Source: Phycisphaerae bacterium (GTDB lineage: Bacteria; Planctomycetota; Phycisphaerae; SM23-33). From it: a stretch of 63,590 bases of DNA. The notes below the pieces were generated by a model. It was not told the origin of the DNA and ran no database searches. It was given only the letters and a program-made list of their open reading frames with translations. This document shows, piece after piece, positions 8,013 through 29,571 of this stretch (position 1 is the stretch's first letter; each line of letters starts with the position of its first letter). The position numbers were made by a program, and so were the translations under genes. The stretch lies in the NCBI GenBank assembly GCA_003551645.1, contig PUND01000065.1:1-63590 (forward strand). The letters run 5' to 3'.

Positions 8013-8019
8013 AGGCGAT

Positions 8020-11138: not shown

Positions 11139-11140
11139 AA

Positions 11141-12964: not shown

Positions 12965-13039
12965 CCTGTCTCACCAGTCAGCCGGCGGAACACAAACGCC
13001 GGCAGGCACGACGGCTCCTGTCTTCAAACATCCGTGTAT

Positions 13040-13055
13040 ATCCGCGTTCATCCCT
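13040..13055. repeat. Dispersed 16-bp intergenic repeat ATCCGCGTTCATCCCT, copy 1
   Basis: Exact match at 49059-49074. Preceded here by the related unit ATCCGTGTAT. Confidence 0.75.
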
Positions 13056-13096
13056 GCTCAGCTTCCAGCAAATGCCGCCAGGGTTCTGTCTCGGTA

Positions 13097-14497: not shown

Positions 14498-14650
14498 TGA
14501 TGTTCCGGTGCGGTCTGTCGGCTTGAACCTCGACAGGCGGCAGTGTACATTAATCTACCCACCATTTTTGTCTTTATGCTCCTGAAAACCAAGAGATTTT
14601 GCGGGCCGACCGGCCCTGAAACAGGTTCAACCCCGATAAGGGGGCCGATT

Positions 14651-15889
14651 ATGCCAAAGATTGCGGCTTTGCTGTGCGCGTTTCTGTGTGTCGGTGTTCT
14701 GATGCACTTGTATCCCCCCGCGGCAAGCGCCGAGGATAGCGCCGTGTCCGACTGGCCGCAGTTCCTCGGCCCGAACCGCGACGGCACCACCCCGGAAAGC
14801 GGCTGGCGAACCGACTGGGACGACCAACCGCCCGAAAAGCTCTGGGAAAGAGACGTCGGCACCGGCTACGGCAGCGTGGCCGTCCGCGACGGCCGGGTGT
14901 ACACCATGGGCAACGCGGACCGAACACAGGACGTGGTCTGGTGTCTTGACGCCTCCTCCGGCGAGGTTATCTGGAGGCACAGCTATCGGCAGCGGGGCGC
15001 CGGCGCCGGCTACCCAGGCCCGAGGGCGACGCCGACACTCGACGGCGACCACGTTTACTCCTTCAGCATTGAGGGCAAACTGCTGTGTCTGGACGATTCC
15101 CGCGACGGCGAGGTCGTCTGGAGCAGGGACGTGGTGGACGATTTTTCCGGAACAGCCGGGCAGTGGGGCTTCGCCTCGTCGCCGCTGGTGCTGGGTGAGA
15201 AGCTCATCGTGGACGCCGGGACGGTCCTCGCACTGGACAAGAACACGGGCGAGCTTATATGGCGGACCGGCGACTACCGGGCCGGCTACAGCTCCCCTGT
15301 GGCGTTCGAACGAGACGGCGAGACGCTGCTGGCGATATTCAACGCCTCCGGCCTGGTGATCCTCAACGCCGAGGACGGCGAGAAGATCGCCGAGCACCGC
15401 TGGCGGACCGCCCATGACGTCAACGCGGCCCTGCCCCTGATTGACGGGGACCACATCTTCATCACCTCCGGCTACCGAAGCGGCGGGGCGCTGCTGAAGC
15501 TGACCGATGAGGGGCTTGAGGAAATCTGGCAAAACCGTGCCCTGGGCAGCCAGTTCTCCAGCGTGATACTCAGGGACGGCTACCTCTACGGCTTCGACGG
15601 CAACGTCGGTGGCGCGCGGATGAAGTGCGTGGAGCTGGAGACCGGCCGGGAGGTCTGGCAGCACCGCGAGTCCGGCGCGATGATACTCGCCGGCGACAAG
15701 TTCCTCATACAGGGCCACGCGGGCCGACTGGCCGTGGCCAGGCCGACGCCCGAGGAGTACGAAGAACTGTCGTCGTTTACTCTGCCGCGCGACCGATGGT
15801 GGAATATCGCCGTACTCGCCGAAGGCCGCATATACGCGCGTAGCCACGGCGGAAAACTGGTCTGCCTGGACGTCAGCGAAGAACAGTAA
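14651..15889 (+). CDS. Secreted PQQ/BamB-like beta-propeller protein
   Basis: Sec signal (ASA-ED), DWPQFLGPNRDG, ATPTLDG and FASSPLV. ATG at 14651. Confidence 0.88.
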   Translation: MPKIAALLCAFLCVGVLMHLYPPAASAEDSAVSDWPQFLGPNRDGTTPESGWRTDWDDQPPEKLWERDVGTGYGSVAVRDGRVYTMGNADRTQDVVWCLDASSGEVIWRHSYRQRGAGAGYPGPRATPTLDGDHVYSFSIEGKLLCLDDSRDGEVVWSRDVVDDFSGTAGQWGFASSPLVLGEKLIVDAGTVLALDKNTGELIWRTGDYRAGYSSPVAFERDGETLLAIFNASGLVILNAEDGEKIAEHRWRTAHDVNAALPLIDGDHIFITSGYRSGGALLKLTDEGLEEIWQNRALGSQFSSVILRDGYLYGFDGNVGGARMKCVELETGREVWQHRESGAMILAGDKFLIQGHAGRLAVARPTPEEYEELSSFTLPRDRWWNIAVLAEGRIYARSHGGKLVCLDVSEEQ

Positions 15890-15923
15890 AACACCCCACA
15901 ACCCCAAACGCGAGGAACACAAA

Positions 15924-17306
15924 ATGAGAACTAACACCGTCGCCCTGTGTCTGGCTGCCCTGGTCGCCTCCTGCGCCGCGGCCAGCCCGCCTGTTGGCTG
16001 GCGGGGCGACGGAACCGGGCGCTACCCGGACTCCGAAGCGCCGAAGGAATGGTCCGCTGAGCGGAACGTATTGTGGTTTGCGGAAACCTCTGAATGGTCC
16101 AACACGATGCCGACCATCGTGGGCGACCGGATTTTCATAACCGCCGAGCCGGCGACCCTGATATGCCTAGACGCATCGGACGGCTCGGTCCTCTGGCAGG
16201 CCGAGAACGATTACGAAAGCATTCTCCGCGAGGAGGAACTGGCCCGCGCCGAAAAGGCCCGGGAGCTTAACCGTGAGCTTTCCAGTCTGCGAGGCGAACA
16301 CCGCCGCACCCGCCGGGAGGCCGAACGCGCCGAGGATGAGCCGGAAAAGGCCGCCGAACTCGCACAGCAGGTCGAGAAACTCCAGGAGCAGGTGGATGAG
16401 TTGCAGCAGCGCCTGGCGTCCTACAGGGAATACCTCAAGCCCGACACCCACGGCACCAACGGCTATTCCTCGGCGACCGTCGTCAGCGACGGCCGATACG
16501 TTCACGCGCTTTTCGGCATCGGTGTGGCCGTCTCTTACGACATGGAAGGTAACCGCCGCTGGGCAAGGCGCGTCGATAAGCCCCGCAGCGGCTGGGGCCA
16601 CAGTGCATCTCCGGTTTTGGCGGACGGCAAGCTGATAGTGCATGTTACCGACGTGGTTGCGCTGAATACCGACGACGGTGAAGAGATATGGCGCACGCCC
16701 GCCAAGGCCAGCTTCGGCACACCCGTGGTGGCCTCGGCCGACGGCGGCGACGTGATCATCACACCCCGCGGCGACTTCATCAGGGCCTCGGACGGCGAGA
16801 AACTCGGCTCGGTCGCCGCGGGCCTTGAGTACAACTCACCCGTAATCCAGGACGGAGTGGTGTATTTCGTCGCCAACCAAAGAGGCAGGGCAACAGCCGT
16901 CAAGCTTCCGGAAAAGCCGGAGCCATTCGACGCGGAACCCCTCTGGCAGGTGGATATCACACGCAATCGGTACTACGGGTCGCCGGTTTACCGCGACGGC
17001 AGGATTTACGCCGTCACACAGAGCCACCAGTTGACCGTCCTGGACGCCTCCAACGGCGAGGCCATATACGAGATGAGGATCCCCGATATGCCCGGCCTGG
17101 TCTATTCAAGCATCACCATGACACGCAACGCACTGCTGATAAGCACCGAGCGGGGCGCGACCGTTCTGCTCGCGCCCGGTGATGAATACGAGGAACTCGG
17201 CCGGGGCCGCCTGGATACCTTCCGCAGCACTCCGGTGTTCGACTCCGGAAGGATGTACATACGCACACGGTCGGGGCTGTACTGCATCGCACCCGAGGAC
17301 AATTGA
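15924..17306 (+). CDS. Secreted PQQ/BamB-like beta-propeller with a coiled-coil insertion
   Basis: Signal peptide, GWRGDGTGRY, a ~70 aa Glu/Arg-rich helical insert, HSASPVL and STPVF. Confidence 0.82.
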   Translation: MRTNTVALCLAALVASCAAASPPVGWRGDGTGRYPDSEAPKEWSAERNVLWFAETSEWSNTMPTIVGDRIFITAEPATLICLDASDGSVLWQAENDYESILREEELARAEKARELNRELSSLRGEHRRTRREAERAEDEPEKAAELAQQVEKLQEQVDELQQRLASYREYLKPDTHGTNGYSSATVVSDGRYVHALFGIGVAVSYDMEGNRRWARRVDKPRSGWGHSASPVLADGKLIVHVTDVVALNTDDGEEIWRTPAKASFGTPVVASADGGDVIITPRGDFIRASDGEKLGSVAAGLEYNSPVIQDGVVYFVANQRGRATAVKLPEKPEPFDAEPLWQVDITRNRYYGSPVYRDGRIYAVTQSHQLTVLDASNGEAIYEMRIPDMPGLVYSSITMTRNALLISTERGATVLLAPGDEYEELGRGRLDTFRSTPVFDSGRMYIRTRSGLYCIAPEDN

Positions 17307-18163
17307 CCATGGAATCACCCGCGGATGTGTTGTTTTGCCGCTGCGCATACGCCGGCCTCACAGACCCCGCCGAATGTGAACGTCTGCTCGCTGGGCTGCG
17401 GGCGGCGGGGCTTTCCTGCAGCCCTATACCTGACCTGTGCTCGCTGGTCGAAAGACGCGACCCGATACTGAGCGAGACCGCCGGGCGGCGGCGGCCGGTG
17501 ATCGTCGCCTGTCGGCCGAGGGCGGTGCGGGCACTGTTCGCGTACGCCGGGGCGGAGCTTCCCGAAGATGCGGCCGTGACAGACCTTCGCAACACGCCCG
17601 TTGAGGAGGCGCTTGCGGAAATAGTGCCGCCGGAAACACTCCCGGCCGCCCGCGCCGCGGCCGAGGCGGCCGGCGTCGCCGAGCCAAGGCAAGACCCCGA
17701 AGACGGCTGGCTGCCGTGGTTTCCGGTCATCGACTACACACGCTGCACCCACTGCGGTAAGTGCCGTAACTTCTGTCTGTTCGACGTTTACACCACCACC
17801 GACGACGGCCGGGTCGCCGTCTCGGCGCCGCGAAACTGCAAGACCTTCTGCCCGGCCTGTGCCCGCACGTGCCCGGCCGGCGCGATCATCTTCCCCAAAC
17901 ACCCCGATCCGCCCATCGACGGCGGCGAGCCGGACAAACCCTCCAAGGCCGAAGATGCGCCTACACTGGTGCAACAGGATGTGTTCGAGGCATTGAAGGC
18001 CCGCAACCGCCGCCGGCAAGACCCTTGCGAATGCGACTGCGAGAAGGGCGCGGCTGATCCGTCGGAGCAGTTGAAACAGGCCGGGCTTTCCCCCGACAAG
18101 ATAGCCGAGATTTCCCGACGTATTCATGAACATGCCCGGGACAATGAGACCCCCGACAAATAA
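17303..18163 (+). CDS. Ferredoxin-family protein: HdrA-N-like Cys domain plus 2x[4Fe-4S]
   Basis: FCRC..LC..ACRPR N-terminal domain, [24 protein letters not shown] and C-terminal CECDC. Confidence 0.8.
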
Positions 18164-19709
18164 CCGCCTCACACCTGCGGTCGTCCTGGTGGCCGACAGG
18201 ACCCTCAGCGCCCGCTACAACGTGCTGTTCGAGGGCATCCTCGCGACTATGCAGACAACTCAGGTCCCGTCGGTGGCGATGCGGCGGCTTCTGTCTCCCT
18301 CGGCGCCGACCGACCGCGACGGCCGGGCCGTAGTCGCTCCGCTGGGGCTGCGAAGGGTGGAAGCCGCGCTGCTGGACGACGGCCTGGACAACGCCGACGT
18401 TGTCGTCACCACACCGGAACGGCTCGAAGACCTGCTCGGCCCGTGGACCATGGTCGTCGCGGTCAGCTCCAGCGACTTCCTCGGCCGGGGCATGAGCAAC
18501 ACCACAACGAGCAATTTCTGGTCCGGCGAGCTTTATACGCGCCGCTGGACACGTCGGATGATGCAACGGATCCTCGATGCGAAACGTCGTTTCGGCTTCT
18601 CGGTCATCGCCGGCGGGGCGGGCGCCTGGCAGTTGGCCCAGAGGCCGCAAGAGGCAGGGCGACTGGGCATTGATACCGTCTTTCAGGGTTACTTCGAATC
18701 CGGCGGCCCGGACACTGTCCGCGATCTCCTGCGGGGCCGCGAAGCCCCGTTCCACATACACCAGCTGCGGACCCGCGCGGCCTGGGCACGGCCGATTCGC
18801 GCGGCGTCCTCGATGGGCGTGGTGGAGCTTTCCCGCGGCTGCGGCAACGGCTGCCAATACTGCACCATGGGCCGGCATGCGATGGAGCACCTGCCGCCGG
18901 AGACCATACTCAGCGACCTTCGGACCAACTGCGAGGCCGGACTACGAAGCGCCGTCAGCAGCAGTGAGGACTTCTTCCGCTACGGCGCCGACCGCGGCCG
19001 GGTCAACTTCGACGCCCTTACAGGCCTGCTCGAACAGGTCCGCCGGATCCCGGTGCGGTTCATGCAGATAGACCACGCCAACATCAGCTCGGTTCTGGAG
19101 TTCTCCGACTCGCAACTGCGGGAAATCCGCCGACTCCTGACGTGGTCGCCCTCGACTCGCTACCTGTGGGTGAACCTCGGCGCCGAGAGCGCGAACGGCG
19201 AGCTGGTCGCGGCCAACGGACCGGGCAAGCTAGGCGGCATCCCGCCGGCCGACTGGCCCGAAGCCGTCATCGAGGCCGCCGACAAGCTCGACCGCACCGG
19301 CTTTTTCCCCGTGTTCAGTCTGGTCCTTGGGCTTCCCGGCGAGACACCCGCCGACGTCCGTGCTACGCTGGACATGGTGCGGCGGCTCGCCAACGGCCGG
19401 GCTGTCATATTCCCGGTGTTCCACGAGCCGATCATGCCCGGCCAGAAGCGATTCGGCATGGCCGAGATGACATCCGAGCACCTGCAACTGTACCGTACTT
19501 GTTACGAGCTGAATTTCCGATGGGTACCGCGGCTGTTCCGCGACAACCAGAGAGTGGGCGGCGTCGGCGGCGTTCGTCGGACGCTGTTCCAGTTGCTGGG
19601 CAGGGCGGAAGTTGTGTCCTGGAGGCGGAACTTCGCTCGCCTTGGCCGGAAACTGCCCGAAAGCCCCACAACCCGCCATCGGCCGGCCGAGATCGCCGCC
19701 GGCGGTTAG
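18144..19709 (+). CDS. Radical SAM enzyme with B12-binding-like N-domain, resembling the GDGT ring synthase (GrsA/B) family
   Basis: CxxxCxxC ([11 protein letters not shown]), [11 protein letters not shown] and LGLPGET. N-terminal VLVADRT..Y and [19 protein letters not shown] match my recollection of the Grs-family pattern. Confidence 0.8.
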
Positions 19710-19716
19710 AATCGCC

Positions 19717-21399
19717 ATGACCGAACCGCAACCCAGACACGCACCCGCCGACGCGGCCACCCGGCGCAAGCTGGAGGCGCTGGCGGCGGAGACCGCCACC
19801 CGCGAGGCGCTGGTCCCGCCGGTGTCGCTGGAGCGGCTCCGCACACTGGCCGCCGGGCTGCTCCGCGAAGCCGGCGCGCCCGACCGCTGGCGCGACTACG
19901 TCATGGTGATCCTCAGCAACGCCGCCTGGCGCGACGCCTTCGCCGACGTGCCCATGAACAAACGCCTGCTTATGCTGCCGCAGTGCCTGCGGCACGATCG
20001 CGACGCCTGCCCGGCGGAAATGGACGGCTTCGGCCTGCTGTGCGGCGACTGCGGCCGATGCCGGATAGGCGAGCTGCGGGCCGTAGCAGAGGCGCTGGGA
20101 TACGTCGTCCTGGTCGCCGAGGGCACAACCGTCGTAACCTCGCTGATAGCGGACGGGCAGGTCGAGGCGATACTCGGCGTAAGCTGCATGAGCGTGCTCG
20201 AGAAGGTCTTCCCATACATCCAGGCGGCAGCGATTCCGGGCATCGCCGTCCCGCTGCTGACGGACGGCTGCTCCGGCACCGAGGTGGACATCGCCGGGGT
20301 GCACGAGGCGATCAACCTCAGCGGCGACGGCGCCACCCGCCGGCTGGACATCGAGGCCGTCCGCCGGGAGGTGCTCGGCTGGTTCAGCGAACGGCGGCTG
20401 GAGGAGATGATGGGCGAGGCCGGCGGCTCGGCCGAGCGCATCGCGCGAGACTGGCTCCTCGCCGGCGGCAAGCGTTGGCGCCCCCTGCTGACGGCCTGCG
20501 CCTACCAGTCGCTGCGCGACGACGAACGAGACGACCTGCCGGTGGAACTCGAAAAAACCGCACTGTCCGTCGAATGCTTCCACAAGGCCTCGCTGATACA
20601 CGACGACATCGAGGACGCCGACGACCAACGTTACGGCCGCGAGACTCTGCACAAGACACACGGAGTCGCGGTGGCGCTGAACGCCGGGGATTTGCTCATC
20701 GGGGAGGGCTACCGGCTGCTCGCCGAGAGCGGCCTGGACGCCGCGAGAACCGCCCGCATGGTCCGCTCGGCGGCCGAGGCCCACCGCCGGCTGTGCGGCG
20801 GACAGGGAGATGAGCTTTCCTGGGCCAGCCGGCCCGGACCGCTGCCGGTGGAGAAGATGCTGGACATCTTCTCGCGAAAGACCTCACCGAGTTTCTACCT
20901 CGCACTGCACCTCGGCGCGATATGCGCCGGCGGGGACCGTGAAATCGACCCACACCTCCGCCTGTACAGCGACTCGGTCGGCATCGCCTACCAGATTCAC
21001 GACGACCTGCGGGACCTCCACTCGCCAGGCGGCGCCGGCGACCTGGACGCGAATCGGCTGTCGGTGGTCCTGGCGGCCGCGTGGGAGCACGCCGACGAAC
21101 AGGGCAGAACACAGCTGGAGGCGGCGCTTCGCAAACCCGCCTCCGACGCCGGCCGCGGCCGGGAGATGTCGCGGCTGCTGAACCGGACACGCGCCGTCCA
21201 TACCGCCCGGCAACTGCTGCAAATGCACAAGCAACAGGCGATCCGCTCGCTGGACGGCCTGCGATGCGCCCCGCTTAAGGCGCTTTTGAGACGACTACTG
21301 GGCAAGATATTCGGCGACGCCGAGGAACTGGGCTGGTGTGCTGACCATTCGGCTGCAAATGCTCCACTGGGCGAGCTTGGCTCGCAACAGACTGCCTGA
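19717..21399 (+). CDS. DUF116-like Cys-rich domain fused to a trans-isoprenyl diphosphate (polyprenyl) synthase
   Basis: N-terminal LPQCLR..CP..CGDCGRC..VAEG..GVSC; C-terminal GGKRWRP, FARM HKASLIHDDIED, RKT and SARM YQIHDDLRD. Confidence 0.9.
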   Translation: MTEPQPRHAPADAATRRKLEALAAETATREALVPPVSLERLRTLAAGLLREAGAPDRWRDYVMVILSNAAWRDAFADVPMNKRLLMLPQCLRHDRDACPAEMDGFGLLCGDCGRCRIGELRAVAEALGYVVLVAEGTTVVTSLIADGQVEAILGVSCMSVLEKVFPYIQAAAIPGIAVPLLTDGCSGTEVDIAGVHEAINLSGDGATRRLDIEAVRREVLGWFSERRLEEMMGEAGGSAERIARDWLLAGGKRWRPLLTACAYQSLRDDERDDLPVELEKTALSVECFHKASLIHDDIEDADDQRYGRETLHKTHGVAVALNAGDLLIGEGYRLLAESGLDAARTARMVRSAAEAHRRLCGGQGDELSWASRPGPLPVEKMLDIFSRKTSPSFYLALHLGAICAGGDREIDPHLRLYSDSVGIAYQIHDDLRDLHSPGGAGDLDANRLSVVLAAAWEHADEQGRTQLEAALRKPASDAGRGREMSRLLNRTRAVHTARQLLQMHKQQAIRSLDGLRCAPLKALLRRLLGKIFGDAEELGWCADHSAANAPLGELGSQQTA

Positions 21400-22219
21400 A
21401 GGGCCTGAGCCGGTCCGGGCGTTCCTGGAATCCAGGCGACTCGCCGGCGGCGGGTTCTCCGGCCGGGACGACAAGCCGGACCTGTACTACACGTCCTTCG
21501 CAGCAGATCTGTTCCGGGCGCTGGGCGGCGACGACCCGCCGCCCGGGCTTACCGACTATCTCGATCGCGCCCTGACCGGCACAGCCGATATGGACCTGGT
21601 CCACCTGTGCTGTCTCATCAGGTCCCGGCGGTCGCTGGGGCTTGCCTGCGACGGACGGTTCGCCGACCGGCTGGCCGAGTTTCGCAGCGCGGACGGCGGG
21701 TTCGCGACCTCCCCGAACGCCAGGACCGGAAGCAGCTACGGGGCGTTCCTGGCTGTGGGGGCGTGGGAGGAACTGGACTCTCCCCCCGAAGACATCAACG
21801 CCGTCGCCGAGAGCGTCCTTGCTCTTCGCTGCCGGGGCGGAAGCTTCGCCAACGACTCCCACCTGCGGATCGGCTCGGTACCCGGCACGGCCGCGGCGGT
21901 GGTGGCTTTGAGACACATGGACCGGCCCGCGGACCCTGAAAGCGCCGATTGGCTGAGCAAACGGCAACTCGCCTCCGGCGGGTTTGAACCGGTCGCCGGA
22001 CTGGGCCGCGCCGATTTGCTTTCGACCGCAACGGCGATGGCCGCCCTCGCCGGCGAAGGGCGGCTGACCGGCGAACAGGCCGAAGCGGCCGTGCCGTTCG
22101 TACACCGGCTGTATCGCGGCGGCGGGTTCGCGGCCTCCGAAGACGACCGCGGCGCCGACTGCGAATACACCTGGTATGCGCTGCTGGCACTGGGTCTTCT
22201 GGAGGAGGACCAGGCGTGA
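21338..22219 (+). CDS. Prenyltransferase/squalene oxidase repeat protein (GGTase-beta-like alpha-alpha barrel)
   Basis: Repeated GGF motifs (AGGGF, ADGGFA, GGSFA, ASGGFE), DLYYT, DLLSTATA and DCEYTWYAL. Confidence 0.85.
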   Translation: MLTIRLQMLHWASLARNRLPEGPEPVRAFLESRRLAGGGFSGRDDKPDLYYTSFAADLFRALGGDDPPPGLTDYLDRALTGTADMDLVHLCCLIRSRRSLGLACDGRFADRLAEFRSADGGFATSPNARTGSSYGAFLAVGAWEELDSPPEDINAVAESVLALRCRGGSFANDSHLRIGSVPGTAAAVVALRHMDRPADPESADWLSKRQLASGGFEPVAGLGRADLLSTATAMAALAGEGRLTGEQAEAAVPFVHRLYRGGGFAASEDDRGADCEYTWYALLALGLLEEDQA

Positions 22220-24030
22220 CCGTACCGCACCTGAAAGAGACCCTCGATACGCTCCGCGACCGGCTGCTGGCCGAGCGGTCCGCCCGCGGATGCTGGACCG
22301 GCCGGCTCTCCACCAGCGCCCTTGCGACGGCCACGGCGGTTACCGCTCTGACCATCGCCGAGCCGGAGACCGCCGGCGAGCAAATAGAAGGCGGACTCGA
22401 CTGGCTCCGGACCAACGCCAACAGCGACGGCGGTTGGGGCGACAGCCCGGAAAGCCCGAGTAACCTCTCTACCACCGTGCTGGGCTGGTCCGCATTCGCC
22501 GCGGCCGGCAGGGCGGACGACGAGTGCGCCGCCGCTGCCGAGTCGTGGATAGACCGCGCCGTCGGCGGGCTGGATACGGACAAGCTTCTCGGCGCGATTG
22601 TCGGCTCATACGGCGGCGACCGGACCTTCTCGACGCCGATCCTGGCAATGACCGCGCTTGCCGGACGGCTCGGCCCCGGCCGGGACACCTGGCGGCACGT
22701 GCCACCTCTGCCATACGAACTCGGCGCGCTTTCGCACCGCTGGCTGCGCCGCCTGCGGCTGCCGGTGGTCAGCTATGCGTTGCCGGCGCTTATCGCGGTC
22801 GGCCGGCTGAGGCGATGCCGGCTGCGGCCGCGAAACCCGATAACACGGCTGGTCCGCCGGCTCGCCGATGGCCCGGCCCTGCGGAAGCTCGAACACATCC
22901 AGCCCGAAAGCGGCGGCTACCTGGAGGCCCCGCCGCTGACGGCGTTCGTGGTGATGTCGCTGGTCTCCTGCGGAGCGGCGGAGCACCCCGCGGTGCCGCG
23001 GGGGCTGCGGTTTCTGCACGATACGGTCCGGCCCGACGGCGGCTGGCCCATCGACACCGACCTGGCGACCTGGCTTACGTCCCTGTCGGTCCGCGCGCTT
23101 GCCGCCGACGGGTGTCCTCCGCCGCGATTCACGGCCGAAGACCGCCGTACGACACTTCAATGGCTGCTGGACTGCCAACTGCGACGCGTGCATCGCTACA
23201 CCGAGGCCCCGCCCGGCGGCTGGGCTTGGACCGACCGCTCAGGCGGGGTCCCCGACGCCGACGACACCTCCGGCGCCATGCTCGCCCTGCGACTGCTGGA
23301 CGGCGACGACCCGAGCCGCGCCCGGGCGGCCGAGTTCGCCGCCGACTGGCTCGGAGGGCTGCAGAACCGCGACGGGGGAATCCCGACGTTCTGCCGCGGG
23401 TGGGGCCGGCTTCCGTTCGACCGCAGCGCGGCCGACCTGACCGCCCACGCCGTCGCCGCATGGTCCGCCTGGCCGCCTGCCGGCGACCGGGCCGGCGAGA
23501 GGATGTCCCGCATCAAGCGGGCGGTCGCATACCTGGCGCGGGCACAACGAGCCGACGGCGCCTGGCTGCCGCTGTGGTTCGGCAACCAGCACACGCCTGA
23601 TATGACCAACCCGGTTTACGGGACCGCTCGCGTGCTGATAGGGCTTTGCGGCGCGGACGCCGCGAACAACACGCCCGACGCGCTGAGCCGTGGGGCCGGA
23701 TGGCTGCTGTCGGTCCAGCGGTCCGACGGCGGATTCGGCGGCGACTCGGACGGGCCTTGTTCCATCGAGGAGACCGCGGTAGCCGTATCGGCCCTGTCGG
23801 CCGTCGGCCTGCGTATGCCGGATGAGCCGCGGCTGCCCGATGCCGTGCGGCGCGGAGCGATGTGGCTTATCGAACACACAGACGGCGGAAACGTAACGCC
23901 CGCCACGCCCATAGGGCTTTACTTCGCCAGACTGTGGTATTCCGAGAAGCTGTACCCGCTTATTTTCTCCACTGAGGCCCTGGCACGGGCCGGGGCATTG
24001 CTGCATCGTCGCTACGAAGGCGATACGTGA
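22216..24030 (+). CDS. Class II terpene cyclase (squalene-hopene cyclase-like)
   Basis: Catalytic DxDD motif (PDADDTS) and at least six QW-type repeats (NANSDGGWG, VRPDGGW, LQNRDGG, AQRADGAW, VQRSDGGFG). Confidence 0.88.
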   Translation: MTVPHLKETLDTLRDRLLAERSARGCWTGRLSTSALATATAVTALTIAEPETAGEQIEGGLDWLRTNANSDGGWGDSPESPSNLSTTVLGWSAFAAAGRADDECAAAAESWIDRAVGGLDTDKLLGAIVGSYGGDRTFSTPILAMTALAGRLGPGRDTWRHVPPLPYELGALSHRWLRRLRLPVVSYALPALIAVGRLRRCRLRPRNPITRLVRRLADGPALRKLEHIQPESGGYLEAPPLTAFVVMSLVSCGAAEHPAVPRGLRFLHDTVRPDGGWPIDTDLATWLTSLSVRALAADGCPPPRFTAEDRRTTLQWLLDCQLRRVHRYTEAPPGGWAWTDRSGGVPDADDTSGAMLALRLLDGDDPSRARAAEFAADWLGGLQNRDGGIPTFCRGWGRLPFDRSAADLTAHAVAAWSAWPPAGDRAGERMSRIKRAVAYLARAQRADGAWLPLWFGNQHTPDMTNPVYGTARVLIGLCGADAANNTPDALSRGAGWLLSVQRSDGGFGGDSDGPCSIEETAVAVSALSAVGLRMPDEPRLPDAVRRGAMWLIEHTDGGNVTPATPIGLYFARLWYSEKLYPLIFSTEALARAGALLHRRYEGDT

Positions 24031-24377: not shown

Positions 24378-25574
24378 ATGAAGCAGGCAATCATCCTGGT
24401 CCTGATAATGGGCGCCGCGTTCGCGGCGCTGCTCCTGTTGCGGATGCGCGACGACAGCGACGCTGATGCCGATCCGCCTCGGCCGCGGGAGGAACCCGCG
24501 CAAATCAACGCCCGTGGAGACTGGCCGATCTTCCGGGGCGATGCGGCGCTGCAGGCCCACAGCCCGACCGAGCTGCCCCGGCGGCTGCGGCTTATCTGGC
24601 GACAGGACACCGCAGCGCCGATCAACAGCTCGCCGGTAATCGCCGACGGTCTGGTCTTCGTCGGCAACGACGACGGAAAGCTGCTGGCCCTTCGGCTCAG
24701 CGACGGCCGGGAGCAATGGTCGTTCGCCGCGGCCGACCCGATAGTCGCGCCGCCGATGGTCGCGGACGGCTCGGTCTATGTCGGCACGCTTGCCGGGGAC
24801 CTGCTGCGGCTGGACGCCGCCGACGGCGAGAAGCTCTGGTCATACGCCACCGGCGGTGAGATTCACGGCTCGGCCAACTCCGCCGGCAGCGGCGACCAAC
24901 TGCGGATACTGGTGGGCAGCTACGACGGCAAGCTGCACTGCGTGCGCGCCTCCGACGGGCACGGGCTTTGGACGTACCAGACCGACAACTACGTTCACGG
25001 CGCCCCGGCCGTCGCCGACGGGCTGGCCGTCTTCGGCGGCTGTGACTTCAACATCCACACCGTCGGCATCGAAGACGGACAACCCGCCGGGAGCGTCCAT
25101 CTGGGGCAGGGTTCATACGTCGCCGCCTCCGTCGCCGTCGCCGACGGCAGGGCCTACGCGGGCACGCACGACAACAGCTTCGTGGCCGTTGAACTTCCAG
25201 AAGGCCCGATCCGATGGGAACAGACCGCCGGCGGCGCCTTTTTCAGCCCGCCGGCGATAGCCGACGGCATGCTGGTTATCGGCTGCCGCGACCGGAACGT
25301 TTACTGCTTCGACGCCCGGACCGGAGAGCTTGTCTGGAGCTTCCTGACAGGCGGCGATGTTGACGGCGGGGCGGTTGTCGCCGGCCGGCGCGTGGTGGTC
25401 GGCTCGGCCGGCGGCAAGCTGTACCTGCTGGACCTCGCCGACGGCCGCGAGATATGGTCCCACACGCTGGGCGGGCCGATAAAGACCACGCCGGCGGTGG
25501 TCGAGGGCGCAGTCGTGGTCGGCTGCGAGGACGGCTTCGTGTACGCCTTCGCCCCCGAGGAGCCGGAGCAATGA
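24378..25574 (+). CDS. Membrane-anchored PQQ/BamB-like beta-propeller protein
   Basis: N-terminal TM segment, DWPIFRGD and eight regular blades (SSPVIADGLVFVG..GKLLAL..W). Confidence 0.9.
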   Translation: MKQAIILVLIMGAAFAALLLLRMRDDSDADADPPRPREEPAQINARGDWPIFRGDAALQAHSPTELPRRLRLIWRQDTAAPINSSPVIADGLVFVGNDDGKLLALRLSDGREQWSFAAADPIVAPPMVADGSVYVGTLAGDLLRLDAADGEKLWSYATGGEIHGSANSAGSGDQLRILVGSYDGKLHCVRASDGHGLWTYQTDNYVHGAPAVADGLAVFGGCDFNIHTVGIEDGQPAGSVHLGQGSYVAASVAVADGRAYAGTHDNSFVAVELPEGPIRWEQTAGGAFFSPPAIADGMLVIGCRDRNVYCFDARTGELVWSFLTGGDVDGGAVVAGRRVVVGSAGGKLYLLDLADGREIWSHTLGGPIKTTPAVVEGAVVVGCEDGFVYAFAPEEPEQ

Positions 25575-26278
25575 ACAACGATGCGCAAATCGCACAGATG
25601 GAGCATGTGGCGCGGTGGTTCCAGCAGCCGGACCGGACAGAGCGGCTGGAGGTGCTGCGGGATGTGTCGCTGCAAGTCGCGGCGGGCGAGTCGCTGGCTG
25701 TCGTGGGCCCCAGCGGGTCGGGCAAAAGCACGCTGCTGAACCTTCTGGCCGGGCTGGACAGGCCCAGTTCCGGGCGGGTGACTGTGGACGGCCGGGAGGT
25801 GTCCGGCCTCGACGACGATGCCCGCAGCCGGCTGAGATGCGAGCGGATCGGCATAGTCTTCCAGCTACACCATCTCCTGCCACAGTGCAGCGTGATGGAG
25901 AACGTCCTCATCCCCACGCTGGCGCCGGGGGCGCCGGAAGCGGCGTCGGCGCCGCGGCGCGCGAGCGACCTTCTGGAGCGCGTCGGCCTGGCCGACCGGC
26001 TGGACCACCGCCCGGGGCAGCTATCCGGCGGTGAGCGCCAGCGCGTGGCGGTGGTGCGGGCGCTGATAAACCGTCCGGCGCTGCTGCTTGCGGATGAGCC
26101 GACCGGATCGCTGGATCGTGCGGCGTCGGAGTCGCTGGCGGACCTGCTGGCGGAGCTGAACCGCGAGCAGGGCGTGGCGATGGTGACGGTCACCCACTCC
26201 ATGCGGCTGGCCGAGCGCATGGGTCGAGTGCTGCAACTGGACGACGGGACGCTTCGGACCGACGGGGAGCGGGCGTGA
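25571..26278 (+). CDS. ABC transporter ATP-binding protein (LolD/MacB-type)
   Basis: GPSGSGKST, LSGGERQRVA, LLADEPTGSLD and VTH. Confidence 0.95.
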   Translation: MNNDAQIAQMEHVARWFQQPDRTERLEVLRDVSLQVAAGESLAVVGPSGSGKSTLLNLLAGLDRPSSGRVTVDGREVSGLDDDARSRLRCERIGIVFQLHHLLPQCSVMENVLIPTLAPGAPEAASAPRRASDLLERVGLADRLDHRPGQLSGGERQRVAVVRALINRPALLLADEPTGSLDRAASESLADLLAELNREQGVAMVTVTHSMRLAERMGRVLQLDDGTLRTDGERA

Positions 26279-29200
26279 ATTATTCCCGGATATGGCTTCG
26301 TTCACTGCGGTTCTACCGGCGGACGCACCTCGGCGTGCTGGCGGCGGTGGCTGTGGCCACGGCCGTGCTGGTCGGCGCGCTTGTAACCGGCGACACCGTC
26401 CGCCACAGCATGCGCCGCATGGCCGAACAACGGCTGGGCGAGGTCGAGTTCGCGGTCGTATCTCCGCATCGGCTGTTCGCCGCGGACCTGGCGGGTCGGC
26501 TGGACCCCGGCTGCTCGGCCGTGCTGGAGCTTGCCGCGGCCGCACAGAGACCCGACGGCGCGGCCCGCGCCGCCGGCGTACGGGTGCTGGGAGTCGATGA
26601 GCGGTTCCGGCGTTTGTCCGCGTCGGCCGATGAGCGGATGCGGCCGGAAGGCAACGAGGCCGTCGTCAACGCCCGCCTGGCCGAGCGGCTGGAAATCGCG
26701 CCCGGCGATGAGCTTGTGCTGCGGCTCGAGACTCCGGGTGTGCTGCCGCTTGATGCGCCGCTGGCGGGGCCGGTGGACGGGACACACCTGTCGGTCCGCA
26801 TCCGGGCGGTGGTCGAGGCCGACAATCTTGGCGATTTCGCACTGACGGCCGACCAGCAGACGCCGCTGAACGTGTTCGTCAGTCGAGAGCTGCTTGCCGA
26901 GCGGATCGGCCGCCCGGGCATGGCGAACCTGCTGCTTATGCCGCGGGGCCTGGCCGACGACGCGGCCGATGCGGATGCACTGGTTCGCCAGAACTGGCGG
27001 CCGGCGGACTCCGGGCTGGAACTGCACCGGCCCGGCGAAGATACGGTCGAGCTGCGCAGCGAGAGGGTATTTCTCGATGCGGCCGTGGTGCGGGCGGCGG
27101 CGGAGCTTGGACCCGCCGCCGGCGTGCTGACATACTTTGTGAACACCTTCGCCACCGACGATGCGGAAGCTCCATACGCCTTCGCGGCCGGAGTCGGACC
27201 GCTAGGCGGCAGGCCGGACGACTGCCCGCTGCTGGATGCGCTGGGGGAGTTGGACGACGATGAGGCGGTCGTCAACGAATGGCTCGCCGAACGCGACCTG
27301 CAGGCGACGCCGGGCGATACGCTGCGAATGAGCTATTACGTTGAGGGCGTGGGCGGGCGGCTAGTCGAGCGGACAAGGGAGTTTGGCATATCGGCCGTGG
27401 TTCCGCTTGCCGGCGCGACCGGCGATTCGACGCTGATGCCGGAGTTTCCCGGCCTGGCCGGCGTCGAGGACTGCCGCAACTGGGACCCCGGCGTGCCGAT
27501 GGACCTGTCGCGCATACGCGACCTCGACCAGAGGTACTGGGACAACCACGGCGGCACGCCCAAGGTATTCGTGAACCTGCCGGCGGCGCGGGAGATGTGG
27601 GGCAACCGCTTCGGCGAGCTGACGGCCATCCGCTGGCCGGCGGCCGACGGAAGCCCGGACGGCATTGCCGAACGCCTCGGGTATCTGATAGACCCGGCCG
27701 AGCTTGGGCTGTACTTCCAGCCGGTGCGGATGCGGGCGATTGACGCGGTCGAGCAGGGCCAGGACTTCGGGCAGTTGTTCCTGGGCTTCAGCATGTTCCT
27801 TATCGGCTCGGCGGTGCTGCTGACGGGGCTGTTGTTCGTATTCGGCGTTCAGCAGCGGAGGGAGGAGGTCGGCACGCTGCTTGCCGTCGGCTGGACCAAG
27901 GACCAGGTCCGGCGGCTGCTGCTGACAGAGGGCGCCGTTGTGGCGGTCGTCGGCGGACTTATCGGCGCCCCGGCCGGGCTTGGCTATACGGCGGCGGTCG
28001 CCTGGGCGATGGAGACGTTCTGGCCGCGTGCGGTCGCCGGCGGAAGGCTTGCGCTGCATGCCGGCTGGGTGTCGCTGGTGCTGGGAACGGTCTCGGCGGT
28101 GACGATAGCGGTACTTGCCATGTGGCTTACGCTGCTGCGGCAGATGCGCCGCGATGTGCGTGAGTTGCTGGCCGAAGCGGCCGAGCCGCCTCCACCGCCT
28201 CGGCTGCGGCGGCTGGGATATCTGCCGGCGCCTCTGTGTGCGGCGGCGGCTGGTGTGCTGCTGGCGGCCGGGCCTGGGCTTGGCCCGCAGGCGGCGGCGT
28301 GGTTCTTTGCGGCGGGCGCGTTGCTGCTGGCGGCCTTCGTGACCGGCCTGTATGCGGCTCTGGGACGGCTGTCGGGGAGGTCGCGCCGGTCGCTTGGCTG
28401 GTGGTCGCTGGCGGCCCGCAATGTCGCGCGTCGTCGCGGGCGGAGCGTGGCGGTGGCGGCGCTGCTGGGCTGTGCGAGTTTCATGGTAGTCGCCGTGGGG
28501 GCGAACCGACTCGGCGTCGGCGAGGATGTGTCTGAGCGGTCCGGTCCTGCCGGCGGGTTCGAGCTTATGGCGCGTTCGTCACTGCCGATTGCGGAAGACC
28601 TGCACACCGCCGATGGCAGGAGGGAATTCGGGCTGGACGCCGAGACGGCGGAGTCGGCCGAGGCAGTGGCCTTTCGCGTACACGACGGCGATGAGGCGAG
28701 TTGCCTGAACATAGGCAGGGCGCAGCGGCCGCGACTGCTGGGCGTCCGTCCGGAGGTGCTGGACGGCCGGGGGGCATTTCGCTTTGTGGAGCTTGCCGAG
28801 CAGGCCGATGTGGAAAGCCCGTGGGGCGTGCTGGATATGGAGCTTGCCGAGGGCGAGATCCCGGTCATCGGCGACCAGCCGACGCTGCGATGGTCCCTCA
28901 ACAAGGGACTCGGCGACACCGTCGAGTACACTGATGAGCATGGCGGGCCTTTCCGGCTGAGGATTGTCGGCGTCATCGCATCTTCGGTGCTCCAGGGCAA
29001 TCTGGTGATATCGGAGGAGCATTTCCGGCAGCGGTTCGGGTCCGTCGGCGGCTACCGGATGGCGCTTTTCGACGCCCCGGCCGGCGATACCGACCGGCTA
29101 GCTGAGATGCTCACACGCGCCGGCGAGCCGGTGGGCCTGGAGGTGACGACTACGGCTGAGCACCTCGCGGAGTTCCGCCGGGTGGAGAACACTTACCTGT

Positions 29201-29571
29201 CGATTTTTCAGATACTCGGCGGGCTTGGGCTGCTGCTGGGCACGGTGGCGGTGGGCGTGGTGACGGCCCGGAACGTGCTGGAGCGGCGGACTGAGCTTGC
29301 CCTTCTGCGGGCGGTGGGGCATCCGCCTGCGGGAGTGCGGCGACTGGTGATAGCCGAGCACTGGATGCTACTGACCGCGGGCGTGGGCGTCGGGGCGGCG
29401 GCCGGGCTGCTGGCTGTGATGCCGGCGATGGCCCAGCGGGACGGGCAATTCCCCGCTGTTTCACTGGCCCTTACGCTTCTGGCGATCCTCGCCGGTGGGC
29501 TGGTATGGACATACCTGGCCGCGTCGGCGTCGATGCGCGGCGACCTGCTGCCGGCGCTGAGGAACGAATAA
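26275..29571 (+). CDS. Large FtsX/MacB-family ABC permease (duplicated, 1098 aa)
   Basis: Two repeats of TM, large periplasmic domain and FtsX TM block (QRREEVGTLLAVG; ERRTELALLRAVG). Confidence 0.92.
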   Translation: MNYSRIWLRSLRFYRRTHLGVLAAVAVATAVLVGALVTGDTVRHSMRRMAEQRLGEVEFAVVSPHRLFAADLAGRLDPGCSAVLELAAAAQRPDGAARAAGVRVLGVDERFRRLSASADERMRPEGNEAVVNARLAERLEIAPGDELVLRLETPGVLPLDAPLAGPVDGTHLSVRIRAVVEADNLGDFALTADQQTPLNVFVSRELLAERIGRPGMANLLLMPRGLADDAADADALVRQNWRPADSGLELHRPGEDTVELRSERVFLDAAVVRAAAELGPAAGVLTYFVNTFATDDAEAPYAFAAGVGPLGGRPDDCPLLDALGELDDDEAVVNEWLAERDLQATPGDTLRMSYYVEGVGGRLVERTREFGISAVVPLAGATGDSTLMPEFPGLAGVEDCRNWDPGVPMDLSRIRDLDQRYWDNHGGTPKVFVNLPAAREMWGNRFGELTAIRWPAADGSPDGIAERLGYLIDPAELGLYFQPVRMRAIDAVEQGQDFGQLFLGFSMFLIGSAVLLTGLLFVFGVQQRREEVGTLLAVGWTKDQVRRLLLTEGAVVAVVGGLIGAPAGLGYTAAVAWAMETFWPRAVAGGRLALHAGWVSLVLGTVSAVTIAVLAMWLTLLRQMRRDVRELLAEAAEPPPPPRLRRLGYLPAPLCAAAAGVLLAAGPGLGPQAAAWFFAAGALLLAAFVTGLYAALGRLSGRSRRSLGWWSLAARNVARRRGRSVAVAALLGCASFMVVAVGANRLGVGEDVSERSGPAGGFELMARSSLPIAEDLHTADGRREFGLDAETAESAEAVAFRVHDGDEASCLNIGRAQRPRLLGVRPEVLDGRGAFRFVELAEQADVESPWGVLDMELAEGEIPVIGDQPTLRWSLNKGLGDTVEYTDEHGGPFRLRIVGVIASSVLQGNLVISEEHFRQRFGSVGGYRMALFDAPAGDTDRLAEMLTRAGEPVGLEVTTTAEHLAEFRRVENTYLSIFQILGGLGLLLGTVAVGVVTARNVLERRTELALLRAVGHPPAGVRRLVIAEHWMLLTAGVGVGAAAGLLAVMPAMAQRDGQFPAVSLALTLLAILAGGLVWTYLAASASMRGDLLPALRNE

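What the first reader, a model, noticed from the sequence alone, without database searches (positions are those of the whole stretch)
18144..19709. Radical SAM enzyme resembling archaeal GDGT ring synthases inside a bacterial terpene cassette
Segments [61 protein letters not shown] and WPEAVI..A..L...[12 protein letters not shown] follow, in order, the pattern I recall for Sulfolobus GrsA/GrsB. Those enzymes form cyclopentane rings in isoprenoid chains by C-H activation. Here the gene is coupled to a ferredoxin and a polyprenyl synthase, suggesting radical C-C ring formation or cross-linking on a bacterial polyprenoid. The similarity is from memory, not an alignment.
Basis: partly seen in the sequence, partly recalled or inferred. 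Interest (0 to 1): 0.82.

Follow-up and report, generated by a model that had tools for sequence, protein, structure and literature searches.

The report
Bacterial Grs-like radical SAM, terpene operon
This gene encodes a bacterial cousin of the archaeal enzymes that put five-membered rings into membrane lipids; it almost always sits in an operon with an isoprenoid-chain synthase and an orphan terpene cyclase, so it probably tailors an unknown cyclic polyprenoid rather than the branched tetraether lipids it has been linked to.

Summary
ORF 18144(18126)-19709 (+) is a radical SAM enzyme with one CX3CX2C cluster. All six quoted segments are present and align in order with Sulfolobus acidocaldarius GrsA (27% identity over 395 residues, E 5e-40).

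A profile search of 1.8 billion proteins finds only archaeal proteins as the next relatives. They include the Thermoprotei GrsA clade and proteins from Nitrososphaerota genomes. The bacterial proteins form their own well-supported clade beside the archaeal set, so this is a Grs-family homologue, not a GrsA or GrsB orthologue.

The gene belongs to a conserved cassette: ferredoxin-like protein, rSAM, DUF116::polyprenyl synthase, prenyltransferase-like toroid and a DxDD class II "SHC-like" cyclase. All four downstream genes are present in 27 of 29 bacterial loci with enough flank, across at least six phyla, and in 0 of 43 archaeal loci.

Bacterial GrsA homologues are already published, read as possible brGDGT ring synthases. 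The cyclase clade is published as function-unknown. The tight link between the two argues for an isoprenoid substrate.

The chemistry (ring closure, methylation or desaturation) is not resolved. This is a new variant of a known kind, of moderate-to-high interest.

The parts
17303..18163 (+). Ferredoxin-like protein (286 aa): N-terminal Cys-containing domain plus 2x[4Fe-4S] motifs ([11 protein letters not shown] at 17744-17776, [12 protein letters not shown] at 17837-17872). Likely the dedicated electron donor. Its 3' end overlaps the rSAM start.
   Evidence: Pfam Fer4_10/Fer4_9 hits are weak and below the gathering score. Motifs read from the translation. A homologue lies directly upstream of the rSAM in nearly all bacterial loci. 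In L085 it is fused to DUF116.
18144..19709 (+). Grs-family radical SAM enzyme (521 aa from 18144; 527 aa if started at ATG 18126). It has an N-terminal Rossmann-like (B12-type) domain, a radical SAM core with CX3CX2C at 18840-18863, and two long C-terminal amphipathic helices (residues 450-478 and 482-509).
   Evidence: the only invariant Cys are C239, C243, C246 and C459; AF2 model, pLDDT 87; class-B-like fold; 27% identity to GrsA, E 5e-40; trees.
19717..21399 (+). DUF116 (Cys-rich, predicted Fe-S/flavodoxin-like) fused to a trans-polyprenyl diphosphate synthase. FARM DDIED at 20602-20616 with small residues A/S at -5/-4; SARM DDLRD at 21001-21015.
   Evidence: Pfam DUF116 1e-33 and polyprenyl_synt 2e-42; motifs. 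The fusion was noted for Pirellula staleyi Psta_0175 in PMC5898192. It is conserved next to the rSAM.
21338..22219 (+). Prenyltransferase-like alpha/alpha-toroid protein (293 aa) with repeated GGF motifs. It overlaps both neighbours.
   Evidence: Pfam Prenyltrans 1.4e-7; translation; conserved in the cassette.
22216..24030 (+). Class II terpene cyclase of the divergent 'SHC-like' type (604 aa). The DxDD protonation motif is kept (DADDT, 23254-23268) and QW-type repeats are present.
   Evidence: Pfam SQHop_cyclase_C 6e-41 and SQHop_cyclase_N 9e-19. TIGR01507 scores only 131 bits against a cut-off of 431. Motif. The clade is described as function-unknown in PMC7306690 and PMC12414744. Membership of that clade is inferred, not tested with reference sequences.
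25454..29571 (+). ABC ATPase plus a large FtsX-type permease, possibly exporting the product. This is an accessory, not part of the core.
   Evidence: Pfam ABC_tran and FtsX. Both ABC and FtsX relatives are found near the cassette in L004, L023 and L028; L033 has ABC only.

Best explanation
The gene encodes a bacterial member of the GDGT-ring-synthase (Grs) family of B12-type radical SAM enzymes. It has one [4Fe-4S] cluster on CX3CX2C, no auxiliary cluster, an N-terminal Rossmann-like domain that probably holds cobalamin, and two C-terminal amphipathic helices that probably dock it on the membrane.

It works as one step of a conserved, translationally coupled isoprenoid cassette:
- The DUF116::polyprenyl synthase makes a medium- or long-chain all-trans polyprenyl diphosphate.
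- The DxDD 'SHC-like' class II cyclase, perhaps with the small toroid protein, cyclises it.
- The rSAM, reduced through the dedicated ferredoxin-like protein and DUF116, abstracts hydrogen from unactivated or allylic C-H bonds of the isoprenoid chain.

The most likely outcome is closure of a C-C bond between a methyl branch and the chain, giving a Grs-type five-membered ring or a cross-link.

Shown here: the family relationship, the domain anatomy and the cross-phylum gene linkage. Inferred: cobalamin binding, the substrate, the order of steps and the reaction outcome.
For: Homology:
- 27% identity and E 5e-40 to S. acidocaldarius GrsA over the whole available length.
- A profile search of 1.84e9 representatives returns a bacterial clade and then only archaeal full-length relatives among those that carry names: Methanopyrus, Nezha-, Odin-, Bathyarchaeia, Thermoprotei.
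- GrsA sequences nest inside that archaeal set. The bacterial proteins form a separate clade with 99-100 SH-aLRT support.

Anatomy shared with published GrsA descriptions:
- A single cluster. Only C239, C243, C246 and C459 are invariant.
- A Rossmann-like N-domain, a partial TIM barrel and two long C-terminal helices. Compare PMC13459092 and PMC11186832.
- Fold matches are to class-B-like rSAMs: MgmA, TsrM, CysS and AprD4.

Context:
- The same five genes occur in Planctomycetota, Acidobacteriota, Desulfobacterota, Verrucomicrobiota, Armatimonadota and a Chloroflexota-labelled MAG.
- 27 of 29 bacterial loci with at least 6.5 kb downstream carry all four partner domains. None of 43 archaeal loci does.
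- The linkage survives gene-order permutation (L026, L029, L034, L036, L086) and domain re-fusion (a Fer4::DUF116 fusion in L085).
- The partners look catalytically competent: FARM and SARM in the synthase, DxDD in the cyclase.
Against: - There is no biochemical or genetic evidence for any member of the bacterial clade.
- The clade lies outside the archaeal set rather than inside GrsA, so function may have diverged.
- Archaeal lipid B12-rSAMs include methylases and a desaturase as well as ring synthases.
- Pfam does not detect a B12-binding domain (PF02310). It does not detect one in GrsA either.
- Grs acts on saturated chains, yet no reductase is conserved in the cassette. A GGR-like FAD enzyme appears only in L085.
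- Two loci (L020, L023) lack the cyclase nearby.
- Published work proposes a different substrate, brGDGTs, for bacterial Grs homologues.
Confidence: 0.55

Rival explanations
1. It is a tailoring enzyme on the cassette's terpenoid, but with different chemistry: cobalamin-dependent C-methylation (as in Gmm/Cgm/Pgm or HpnP/HpnR) or anaerobic desaturation (as in Ted), not ring closure.
For: Archaeal lipid B12-rSAMs show ring-forming, methylating and desaturating activities. The best structural matches in the PDB are methylases: MgmA, TsrM and CysS. The bacterial clade lies outside the GrsA clade.
Against: The only characterised proteins placed in the recovered relatives are ring synthases. No hopanoid methylase or other methylase model of NCBIfam reaches significance apart from very weak, sub-threshold hits. 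The PDB holds no Grs structure, so the fold ranking is uninformative on this point.
Confidence: 0.25
2. It is the bacterial brGDGT (or other membrane-spanning lipid) cyclopentane ring synthase, as proposed in the literature. The terpene neighbours are functionally unrelated.
For: Published proposals for Solibacter usitatus and for Black Sea Planctomycetota. The same contig carries a PlsA/Ger-like ether-lipid enzyme at 51548-54817. Planctomycetota and Acidobacteriota often carry Tes and Gms homologues.
Against: Linkage to the polyprenyl synthase and cyclase is near-obligatory and survives rearrangement and re-fusion across at least six phyla. That is not expected for unrelated neighbours. No Tes, Mss or Gms homologue lies in the cassette or its flanks. 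The Black Sea study found GrsA hits in Cloacimonadota without Tes. An archaeal-type Grs homologue without the cassette exists in an Acidobacteriota MAG next to a ketoacyl synthase (L050) and is a better candidate for that role.
Confidence: 0.12
3. The rSAM does not modify a lipid. With the ferredoxin-like protein and DUF116 it forms a redox or maturation module, for example modifying a protein or cofactor needed by the neighbouring propeller/NapGH-like periplasmic system.
For: The wider neighbourhood (NuoEF-like, NapGH-like polyferredoxins, PQQ_2 propellers) recurs in L086 and in the window. DUF116 was predicted to act in electron transfer.
Against: The core that stays with the rSAM in all arrangements is the synthase, toroid and cyclase set, not the propellers. 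The characterised homologues placed here (GrsA) act on isoprenoid lipids. The C-terminal amphipathic helices fit a membrane-lipid substrate.
Confidence: 0.05

Closest known systems
GDGT ring synthases GrsA (Saci_1585, WP_011278400.1) and GrsB (Saci_0240) of Sulfolobus acidocaldarius (Zeng et al. 2019)
   Same: Full-length collinear homology (27% identity, E 5e-40 to GrsA). About 500-530 aa. A single CX3CX2C cluster with no auxiliary cluster. A Rossmann-like N-domain not recognised by Pfam B12-binding. Two long C-terminal helices. An isoprenoid lipid context.
   Different: A separate bacterial clade outside the archaeal set. It is encoded with its own ferredoxin-like protein, DUF116, polyprenyl synthase and class II cyclase, none of which accompany archaeal Grs (0 of 43 loci). 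The substrate cannot be an archaeal GDGT. GrsB could not be compared because no sequence was available.
Bacterial 'GrsA/GrsB homologues' reported in Planctomycetota (Phycisphaerae), Cloacimonadota, Acidobacteriota and Desulfobacterota (PMC11868695; PMC10087280; PMC13023045)
   Same: Very probably the same protein family. The taxa match, and they were found by BLAST with the same GrsA query.
   Different: Those papers treat them as candidate brGDGT ring synthases. In the texts available here they do not mention the conserved terpene cassette. The gene linkage found here points to an isoprenoid substrate.
'SHC-like' / 'Unk' clade of class II cyclases (Santana-Molina et al. 2020, PMC7306690; PMC12414744)
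   Same: The partner cyclase has the published traits: divergent from SHC, catalytic DxDD kept, PVC/Acidobacteriota distribution, and a genomic context that suggests a non-squalene precursor.
   Different: That literature concerns the cyclase. The main texts read here say nothing about the rSAM or its Grs affinity. The window's cyclase was not tested against reference sequences for clade membership.
Archaeal B12-rSAM lipid modifiers Gmm, Cgm (Saci_1785), Pgm and Ted (PMC11214058; bioRxiv 10.1101/2025.10.20.683597)
   Same: B12-type rSAMs acting on inert isoprenoid chains. They show that such enzymes can methylate or desaturate rather than cyclise.
   Different: No sequences were available, so the relationship could not be measured. 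They are described as a family distinct from Grs.
Hopanoid rSAMs next to squalene-hopene cyclase (HpnP, HpnR, HpnJ, HpnH)
   Same: The logic of a radical SAM tailoring enzyme encoded beside a class II cyclase.
   Different: No significant sequence match to any Hpn model. There is no squalene synthase or hpn gene in the window. The cyclase is not a bona fide SHC (131 bits against a 431-bit cut-off).
Tetraether synthase Tes / GDGT-MAS (MJ0619, PDB 7TOL/7TOM)
   Same: A radical SAM enzyme making C-C bonds in isoprenoid lipids.
   Different: No sequence hit at E<=1 and not among the top 50 fold matches. Tes has auxiliary clusters and this protein has none.

Membership tests
Radical SAM superfamily | CX3CX2C motif for the SAM-binding [4Fe-4S] cluster and a partial TIM-barrel core | tested here: met
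   CGNGCQYC at residues 239-246, invariant in 24 of 24 family members. Pfam PF04055 scores 37.2 bits against a cut-off of 29.5. The AF2 model shows the barrel.
Class B (cobalamin-binding) radical SAM enzymes | N-terminal Rossmann-like cobalamin-binding domain | tested here: inconclusive
   The model has a Rossmann-like N-domain (strands 19-23, 92-95, 110-114, 159-163, 184-187). The fold matches MgmA, TsrM and CysS, but also AprD4 and MiaB/RimO, which do not bind B12. Pfam PF02310 is not detected in this protein or in the available part of GrsA.
Class B (cobalamin-binding) radical SAM enzymes | Actually binds cobalamin | not testable with these tools
   This needs purified protein (UV-vis or ICP). 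The only hint is a cobW-family gene beside the cassette in 3 loci: L002, L009 and L085.
Grs family (GDGT ring synthases) | Significant full-length collinear homology to GrsA | tested here: met
   BLASTP 27% identity over 395 of the 399 available GrsA residues, E 5e-40. The family profile hits archaeal Grs-type proteins at 160-310 bits.
Grs family (GDGT ring synthases) | Falls inside the GrsA or GrsB clade (orthology) | tested here: not met
   The bacterial proteins form their own clade (99-100 SH-aLRT), separate from the archaeal set that contains GrsA. GrsB was not available. The root was not determined.
Grs family (GDGT ring synthases) | A single Fe-S cluster with no auxiliary cluster, and elongated C-terminal helices | tested here: met
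   Only four invariant Cys, three of them in the rSAM motif. Helices at 450-478 and 482-509. The GrsA traits are as described in PMC13459092 and PMC11186832.
Grs family (GDGT ring synthases) | The organism makes GDGTs (Tes present) and the enzyme forms cyclopentane rings in them | not testable with these tools
No Tes homologue was found among the large ORFs of the 63.6-kb window that were scanned. Activity needs experiments.
Hopanoid B12-rSAM methylases (HpnP/HpnR) and HpnJ/HpnH | Match to the family models | tested here: not met
   No Hpn model appears among NCBIfam hits at E<=0.01. The best hit is TIGR04013 at 64.5 bits against a cut-off of 251. Caveat: I did not verify which Hpn models the library holds.
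Tes / GDGT-MAS | Sequence or fold similarity to MJ0619 (7TOL), and auxiliary clusters | tested here: not met
   No PDB sequence hit at E<=1 other than MgmA and chance matches. It is absent from the top 50 fold matches. There are no auxiliary Cys.
'SHC-like' terpenoid cassette (bacterial) | rSAM encoded with the ferredoxin-like protein, DUF116, polyprenyl synthase, toroid protein and DxDD cyclase | tested here: met
   All are present and overlapping or adjacent in the window. The same set occurs in 27 of 29 bacterial loci with enough flank and, rearranged, in L085 and L086.

The most novel reading that the evidence does not exclude
The cassette is an oxygen-independent pathway, widespread in anaerobic Planctomycetota, Verrucomicrobiota, Acidobacteriota, Desulfobacterota and others. 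It would build a so-far undescribed class of bacterial membrane polyprenoids: a regular polyprenyl chain cyclised at one end by the SHC-like cyclase and given Grs-type five-membered rings or cross-links by this enzyme. If so, bacterial 'GrsA homologue' hits used in environmental surveys as markers of brGDGT cyclisation are misassigned. The products would also be candidates for orphan polycyclic or tricyclic terpane biomarkers.
Probability: 0.3. Interest if true: 0.8.

Novelty: new variant of a known kind. Interest (0 to 1): 0.62.

Why it matters
- GDGT ring synthases underpin the TEX86 palaeothermometer. Their bacterial homologues are now being used to infer who makes ring-bearing brGDGTs, another major climate proxy. 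If the bacterial clade is wedded to a polyprenyl synthase/cyclase cassette, those inferences need revisiting.
- The 'SHC-like' cyclases are a large clade explicitly flagged as function-unknown. Knowing that they travel with a Grs-type rSAM, a dedicated ferredoxin-like protein and their own chain synthase gives a concrete, expressible five-gene set for finding the product.
- It would extend Grs-type radical C-H chemistry from archaeal tetraethers to bacterial terpenoids.

Tried and rejected
- Curated family models. NCBIfam's best hit is TIGR04013 at 64 bits against a cut-off of 251. The sampled archaeal relatives also fall below every cut-off. No curated family therefore covers either group.
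- PDB by sequence and by fold. Only generic class-B-like rSAM architecture comes back, and the PDB holds no Grs structure. This cannot discriminate the chemistry.
- Zeng et al. 2019 (DOI and PMC6842593) is not held. The supplements of PMC11214058 and PMC7306690 are not held. I therefore had no GrsB, Gmm, Cgm, Pgm, Ted or Mss sequences, and could not see whether Santana-Molina's Fig. S10 shows the rSAM.
- GrsA sequences came from a spreadsheet that cuts cells at about 400 residues, so the C-terminal helices could not be aligned directly.
- Whole-genome search (genome search) was shut. I could not ask whether this genome has Tes, Mss, Gms or cobalamin genes.
- Sequencing runs: only the source salt-lake metagenome and a weak soda-lake hit, with no RNA. 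There is no expression evidence.
- A conserved chain reductase in the cassette: a GGR-like FAD enzyme is found only in L085 and beside two archaeal Grs genes. I rejected it as a core component.
- HpnP/HpnR-type methylase and Tes-type readings were rejected for lack of any significant similarity.
Full report
**1. The observation**

The + strand carries an ORF at 18126-19709 (527 aa). Pfam recognises only a Radical_SAM core, at 37.2 bits against a cut-off of 29.5. The motif CGNGCQYC (CX3CX2C) lies at residues 239-246, nt 18840-18863.

In an alignment of 24 family members (56-72% identical to the window's protein) the only invariant cysteines are the three of this motif plus C459. An auxiliary Fe-S cluster is therefore unlikely.

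**2. Is the resemblance to GrsA/GrsB real?**

The source data file of PMC11186832 holds twenty archaeal GrsA sequences, each cut at about 400 residues. One is S. acidocaldarius WP_011278400.1.

BLASTP of the window's protein against it gives 27% identity over 395 columns, E 5e-40. It covers the N-terminal domain and the whole radical SAM core.
- [22 protein letters not shown] on KTDDLGRPVQAPYGLRKVEASL
- [11 protein letters not shown] on IIAGGPSVWQW
- [16 protein letters not shown] on GLIEIMRGCARSCRFC
- [10 protein letters not shown] on TMIVGLPEET

The resemblance is genuine homology, not chance.

**3. Where it sits among relatives**

A word-indexed search finds more than 1,000 close homologues at 56-72% identity. 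Those that carry names come from Phycisphaerae, Sedimentisphaerales, Brocadiia, other Planctomycetota and Acidobacteriota.

A profile search of 1.84 billion representative proteins gives 1,282 hits. The bacterial family collapses to about 16-18 full-length representatives. The next 87 full-length hits (160-310 bits) are archaeal wherever a name exists: Methanopyrus kandleri, Nezhaarchaeales, Odinarchaeota, Bathyarchaeia, Thermoprotei and a Euryarchaeota MAG. The Methanopyrus protein is 35% identical to GrsA, E 7e-80.

In a FastTree of 114 rows and an IQ-TREE (LG+C20) of 64 rows, two things hold:
- The Thermoprotei GrsA sequences, and proteins from Nitrososphaerota genomes, nest inside the archaeal set.
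- All bacterial cassette-type proteins form one clade with 99-100 SH-aLRT support, on the other side of a 99-supported branch.

The protein is therefore a member of the Grs superfamily but not a GrsA orthologue. It is a bacterial sister family, or at least a distinct clade, since the root was not determined.

It does not group with other lipid rSAMs:
- No HpnP/HpnR/HpnJ/HpnH model appears among NCBIfam hits. The best hit is TIGR04013 at 64 bits against a cut-off of 251.
- There is no sequence or fold match to the tetraether synthase structure.

**4. Anatomy**

An AlphaFold2 model (mean pLDDT 87, pTM 0.87) shows three parts: a Rossmann-like N-terminal domain (about residues 19-212), the partial TIM barrel, and two long C-terminal helices at 450-478 and 482-509, rich in Arg, Trp and Phe.

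Published descriptions of GrsA models list the same three parts. They suggest that the two C-terminal hydrophobic helices anchor the enzyme at the membrane, and they note the lack of an auxiliary cluster (PMC13459092; PMC11186832).

Foldseek against the PDB returns MgmA, TsrM, CysS, AprD4 and MiaB/RimO at TM about 0.5. That is the class-B-like 'flavodoxin/Rossmann plus rSAM' architecture, with no close solved relative.

Pfam's B12-binding model detects neither this protein nor the available part of GrsA. Cobalamin binding is therefore inferred by analogy, not shown.

**5. The surroundings**

The gene is the second of five overlapping or abutting genes on the + strand:
- A ferredoxin-like protein at 17303-18163 with two 4Fe-4S motifs. 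Its end overlaps the rSAM start.
- The rSAM.
- A DUF116::polyprenyl synthase fusion at 19717-21399. FARM is DDIED with small A/S residues at -5/-4. By the established chain-length rule this favours products longer than C20. SARM is DDLRD.
- A 293-aa prenyltransferase-like alpha/alpha toroid at 21338-22219.
- A 604-aa class II cyclase at 22216-24030 that keeps DxDD (DADDT). It scores only 131 bits against the squalene-hopene cyclase model, whose cut-off is 431.

PQQ_2 beta-propellers, an ABC ATPase and a large FtsX permease flank the cassette.

**6. Is the linkage conserved?**

Three loci fetched by exact protein carry the same five genes in the same order: a 5.8-Mb genome, an Acidobacteriota MAG and a Brocadiia MAG.

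A scan of one genome per GTDB species returned 80 loci. Of these, 33 are bacterial cassette-type loci (39-61% identity) from Planctomycetota, Desulfobacterota, Verrucomicrobiota, Armatimonadota and a MAG labelled Anaerolineales. A further 46 are archaeal (28-34%), and one (L050) is a bacterial locus with an archaeal-type protein.

tblastn with the window's proteins shows the following:
- 27 of the 29 bacterial cassette-clade loci (from both fetches) with at least 6.5 kb downstream of the rSAM carry DUF116, the synthase, the toroid protein and the cyclase.
- The ferredoxin-like gene lies upstream of the rSAM in almost all of them.
- None of the archaeal loci has any of these, apart from one unrelated prenyl synthase hit.

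The linkage survives rearrangement:
- The Verrucomicrobiota loci and the Armatimonadota locus have the order Fer4-rSAM-cyclase-DUF116::PPS (followed by the toroid protein where the contig extends far enough); L086 has Fer4-rSAM-toroid-cyclase-DUF116::PPS.
- The deepest-branching bacterial member (L085) has a separate prenyl synthase, a short cyclase-like protein and a GGR-like FAD enzyme. It also has a single 408-aa protein whose N-half matches the cassette's ferredoxin-like protein and whose C-half matches DUF116. The toroid protein and the rSAM follow.

DUF116 is thus fused to the synthase in most genomes and to the ferredoxin-like protein in one. This argues that ferredoxin-like protein, DUF116 and synthase work together physically, and that the Fe-S components feed the rSAM.

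Exceptions: L020 lacks the toroid and cyclase genes nearby, and L023 has only the rSAM followed by propeller/ABC/FtsX genes.

**7. What is already known**

- Bacterial GrsA/GrsB homologues have been reported. A Black Sea study found GrsA hits in 94 of 684 Planctomycetota MAGs (Phycisphaerae), and in Cloacimonadota, Acidobacteria and Desulfobacterota. It proposed brGDGTs with rings, while noting that Cloacimonadota lack Tes (PMC11868695).
- Halamka et al. proposed the same role in Solibacter usitatus (PMC10087280; see also PMC13023045).
- Separately, the 'SHC-like' cyclases of Planctomycetes were noted to keep catalytic residues and to have a context suggesting a non-squalene precursor (PMC7306690). 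In 2025 they were still described as a clade of unknown function found in PVC, FCB, Spirochaetota and Acidobacteriota (PMC12414744).
- Makarova et al. noted the DUF116-polyprenyl synthetase fusion in Pirellula staleyi (Psta_0175) and predicted an electron-transfer role for DUF116 (PMC5898192).
- None of the texts I could read joins these threads. The supplements that might were not available.
- Earlier agents of this scan reached similar readings on other genomes. Those are not independent evidence, but I re-derived the points myself.

**8. How it most likely works**

Shown: Grs-family homology, a single rSAM cluster, the class-B-like fold, C-terminal amphipathic helices, translational coupling to a ferredoxin-like protein, and cross-phylum co-inheritance with DUF116, a prenyl-chain synthase, a toroid protein and a DxDD cyclase.

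Inferred: the synthase makes a chain longer than C20. The cyclase protonates and cyclises it. The rSAM, reduced through the ferredoxin-like protein and DUF116 and probably using cobalamin to hold or relay the first radical (as proposed for Grs), activates C-H bonds of the isoprenoid chain. The most likely outcome is a methyl-to-chain C-C bond, giving a five-membered ring or a cross-link.

Open points:
- The order of the steps.
- Whether the chain is saturated. No reductase is conserved in the cassette.
- Whether the outcome is ring closure, methylation or desaturation. Archaeal lipid B12-rSAMs do all three.

My probabilities are about 0.9 for 'Grs-family enzyme of this cassette', about 0.65 for 'the substrate is the cassette's isoprenoid', and about 0.35 for 'ring closure' specifically.

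**9. Rivals**

- The brGDGT ring synthase reading has literature support, and a PlsA/Ger-like gene lies 32 kb away on the same contig. It does not explain a linkage that survives permutation and re-fusion across phyla. A cassette-free, archaeal-type Grs homologue next to a ketoacyl synthase in an Acidobacteriota MAG (L050) is a more natural candidate for that job.
- A methylase or desaturase acting on the same terpenoid is the strongest rival.
- A non-lipid maturation role is unlikely.

**10. Verdict**

Neither the bacterial Grs homologues nor the SHC-like cassette is new by itself. The documented, near-obligatory coupling of the two is new as far as I could check, and so is its consequence: bacterial 'Grs' probably tailors a cyclic polyprenoid rather than brGDGTs. 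The coupling is directly testable with a five-gene construct.

The window comes from a salt-lake metagenome, and no transcript data exist.

Noticed in passing
window 51548-54817 (+): A PlsA/Ger-like protein: two BcrAD_BadFG activase domains plus DUF2229 (Pfam 6e-70 and 7e-51). The organism probably makes ether lipids. It lies 32 kb from the cassette and is not linked to it in other loci.
   Followed up: partly
window 5694-17306 and L086 1-8300: A wider neighbourhood recurs upstream of the cassette in L086 and the window: a NuoEF-like flavoprotein, a NapH-like Fer4_5 membrane protein, a small polyferredoxin and several PQQ_2 beta-propellers (L086 also has a GT4 glycosyltransferase). It may be a redox or periplasmic system linked to the cassette.
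   Followed up: partly
window 25454-29571; L004, L023, L028 (L033 has ABC only): An ABC ATPase plus a roughly 1,100-aa double FtsX permease recurs just downstream of the cassette. In L023 it follows the rSAM directly, with no synthase or cyclase. It may export the lipid product.
   Followed up: partly
L085 3019-4245: In the deepest-branching bacterial member, the cassette's ferredoxin-like protein and DUF116 are fused into one 408-aa protein, and the prenyl synthase is separate. The cluster also holds a GGR-like FAD enzyme and ThiS, PALP, cobW and MIP genes.
   Followed up: yes
L050 7989-9593 (Acidobacteriota, Polarisedimenticolaceae MAG): A bacterial genome carries an archaeal-type Grs homologue. 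It nests among archaeal sequences in the tree, has no terpene cassette, and has a beta-ketoacyl synthase upstream. It is a possible separate transfer from archaea and a better candidate for ring formation in fatty-acid-derived lipids.
   Followed up: partly
L026, L029, L036 (Verrucomicrobiota), L034 (Armatimonadota), L086: The cassette order is permuted, with the cyclase, or the toroid protein plus the cyclase, placed before DUF116::PPS. The gene content is unchanged where the contig is long enough (the toroid protein was not found in the short L034 contig).
   Followed up: yes
L002 7622-8740, L009 ~4360-5439, L085 6714-7838: A CobW-family GTPase gene lies beside the cassette in three loci. 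This is a weak hint of a cobalt or cobalamin link.
   Followed up: no
L046 ~6047-7063 and L072 ~11076-12047 (archaeal loci): A geranylgeranyl-reductase-like FAD enzyme lies within about 2-4 kb of the archaeal Grs-type gene in two archaeal loci.
   Followed up: no
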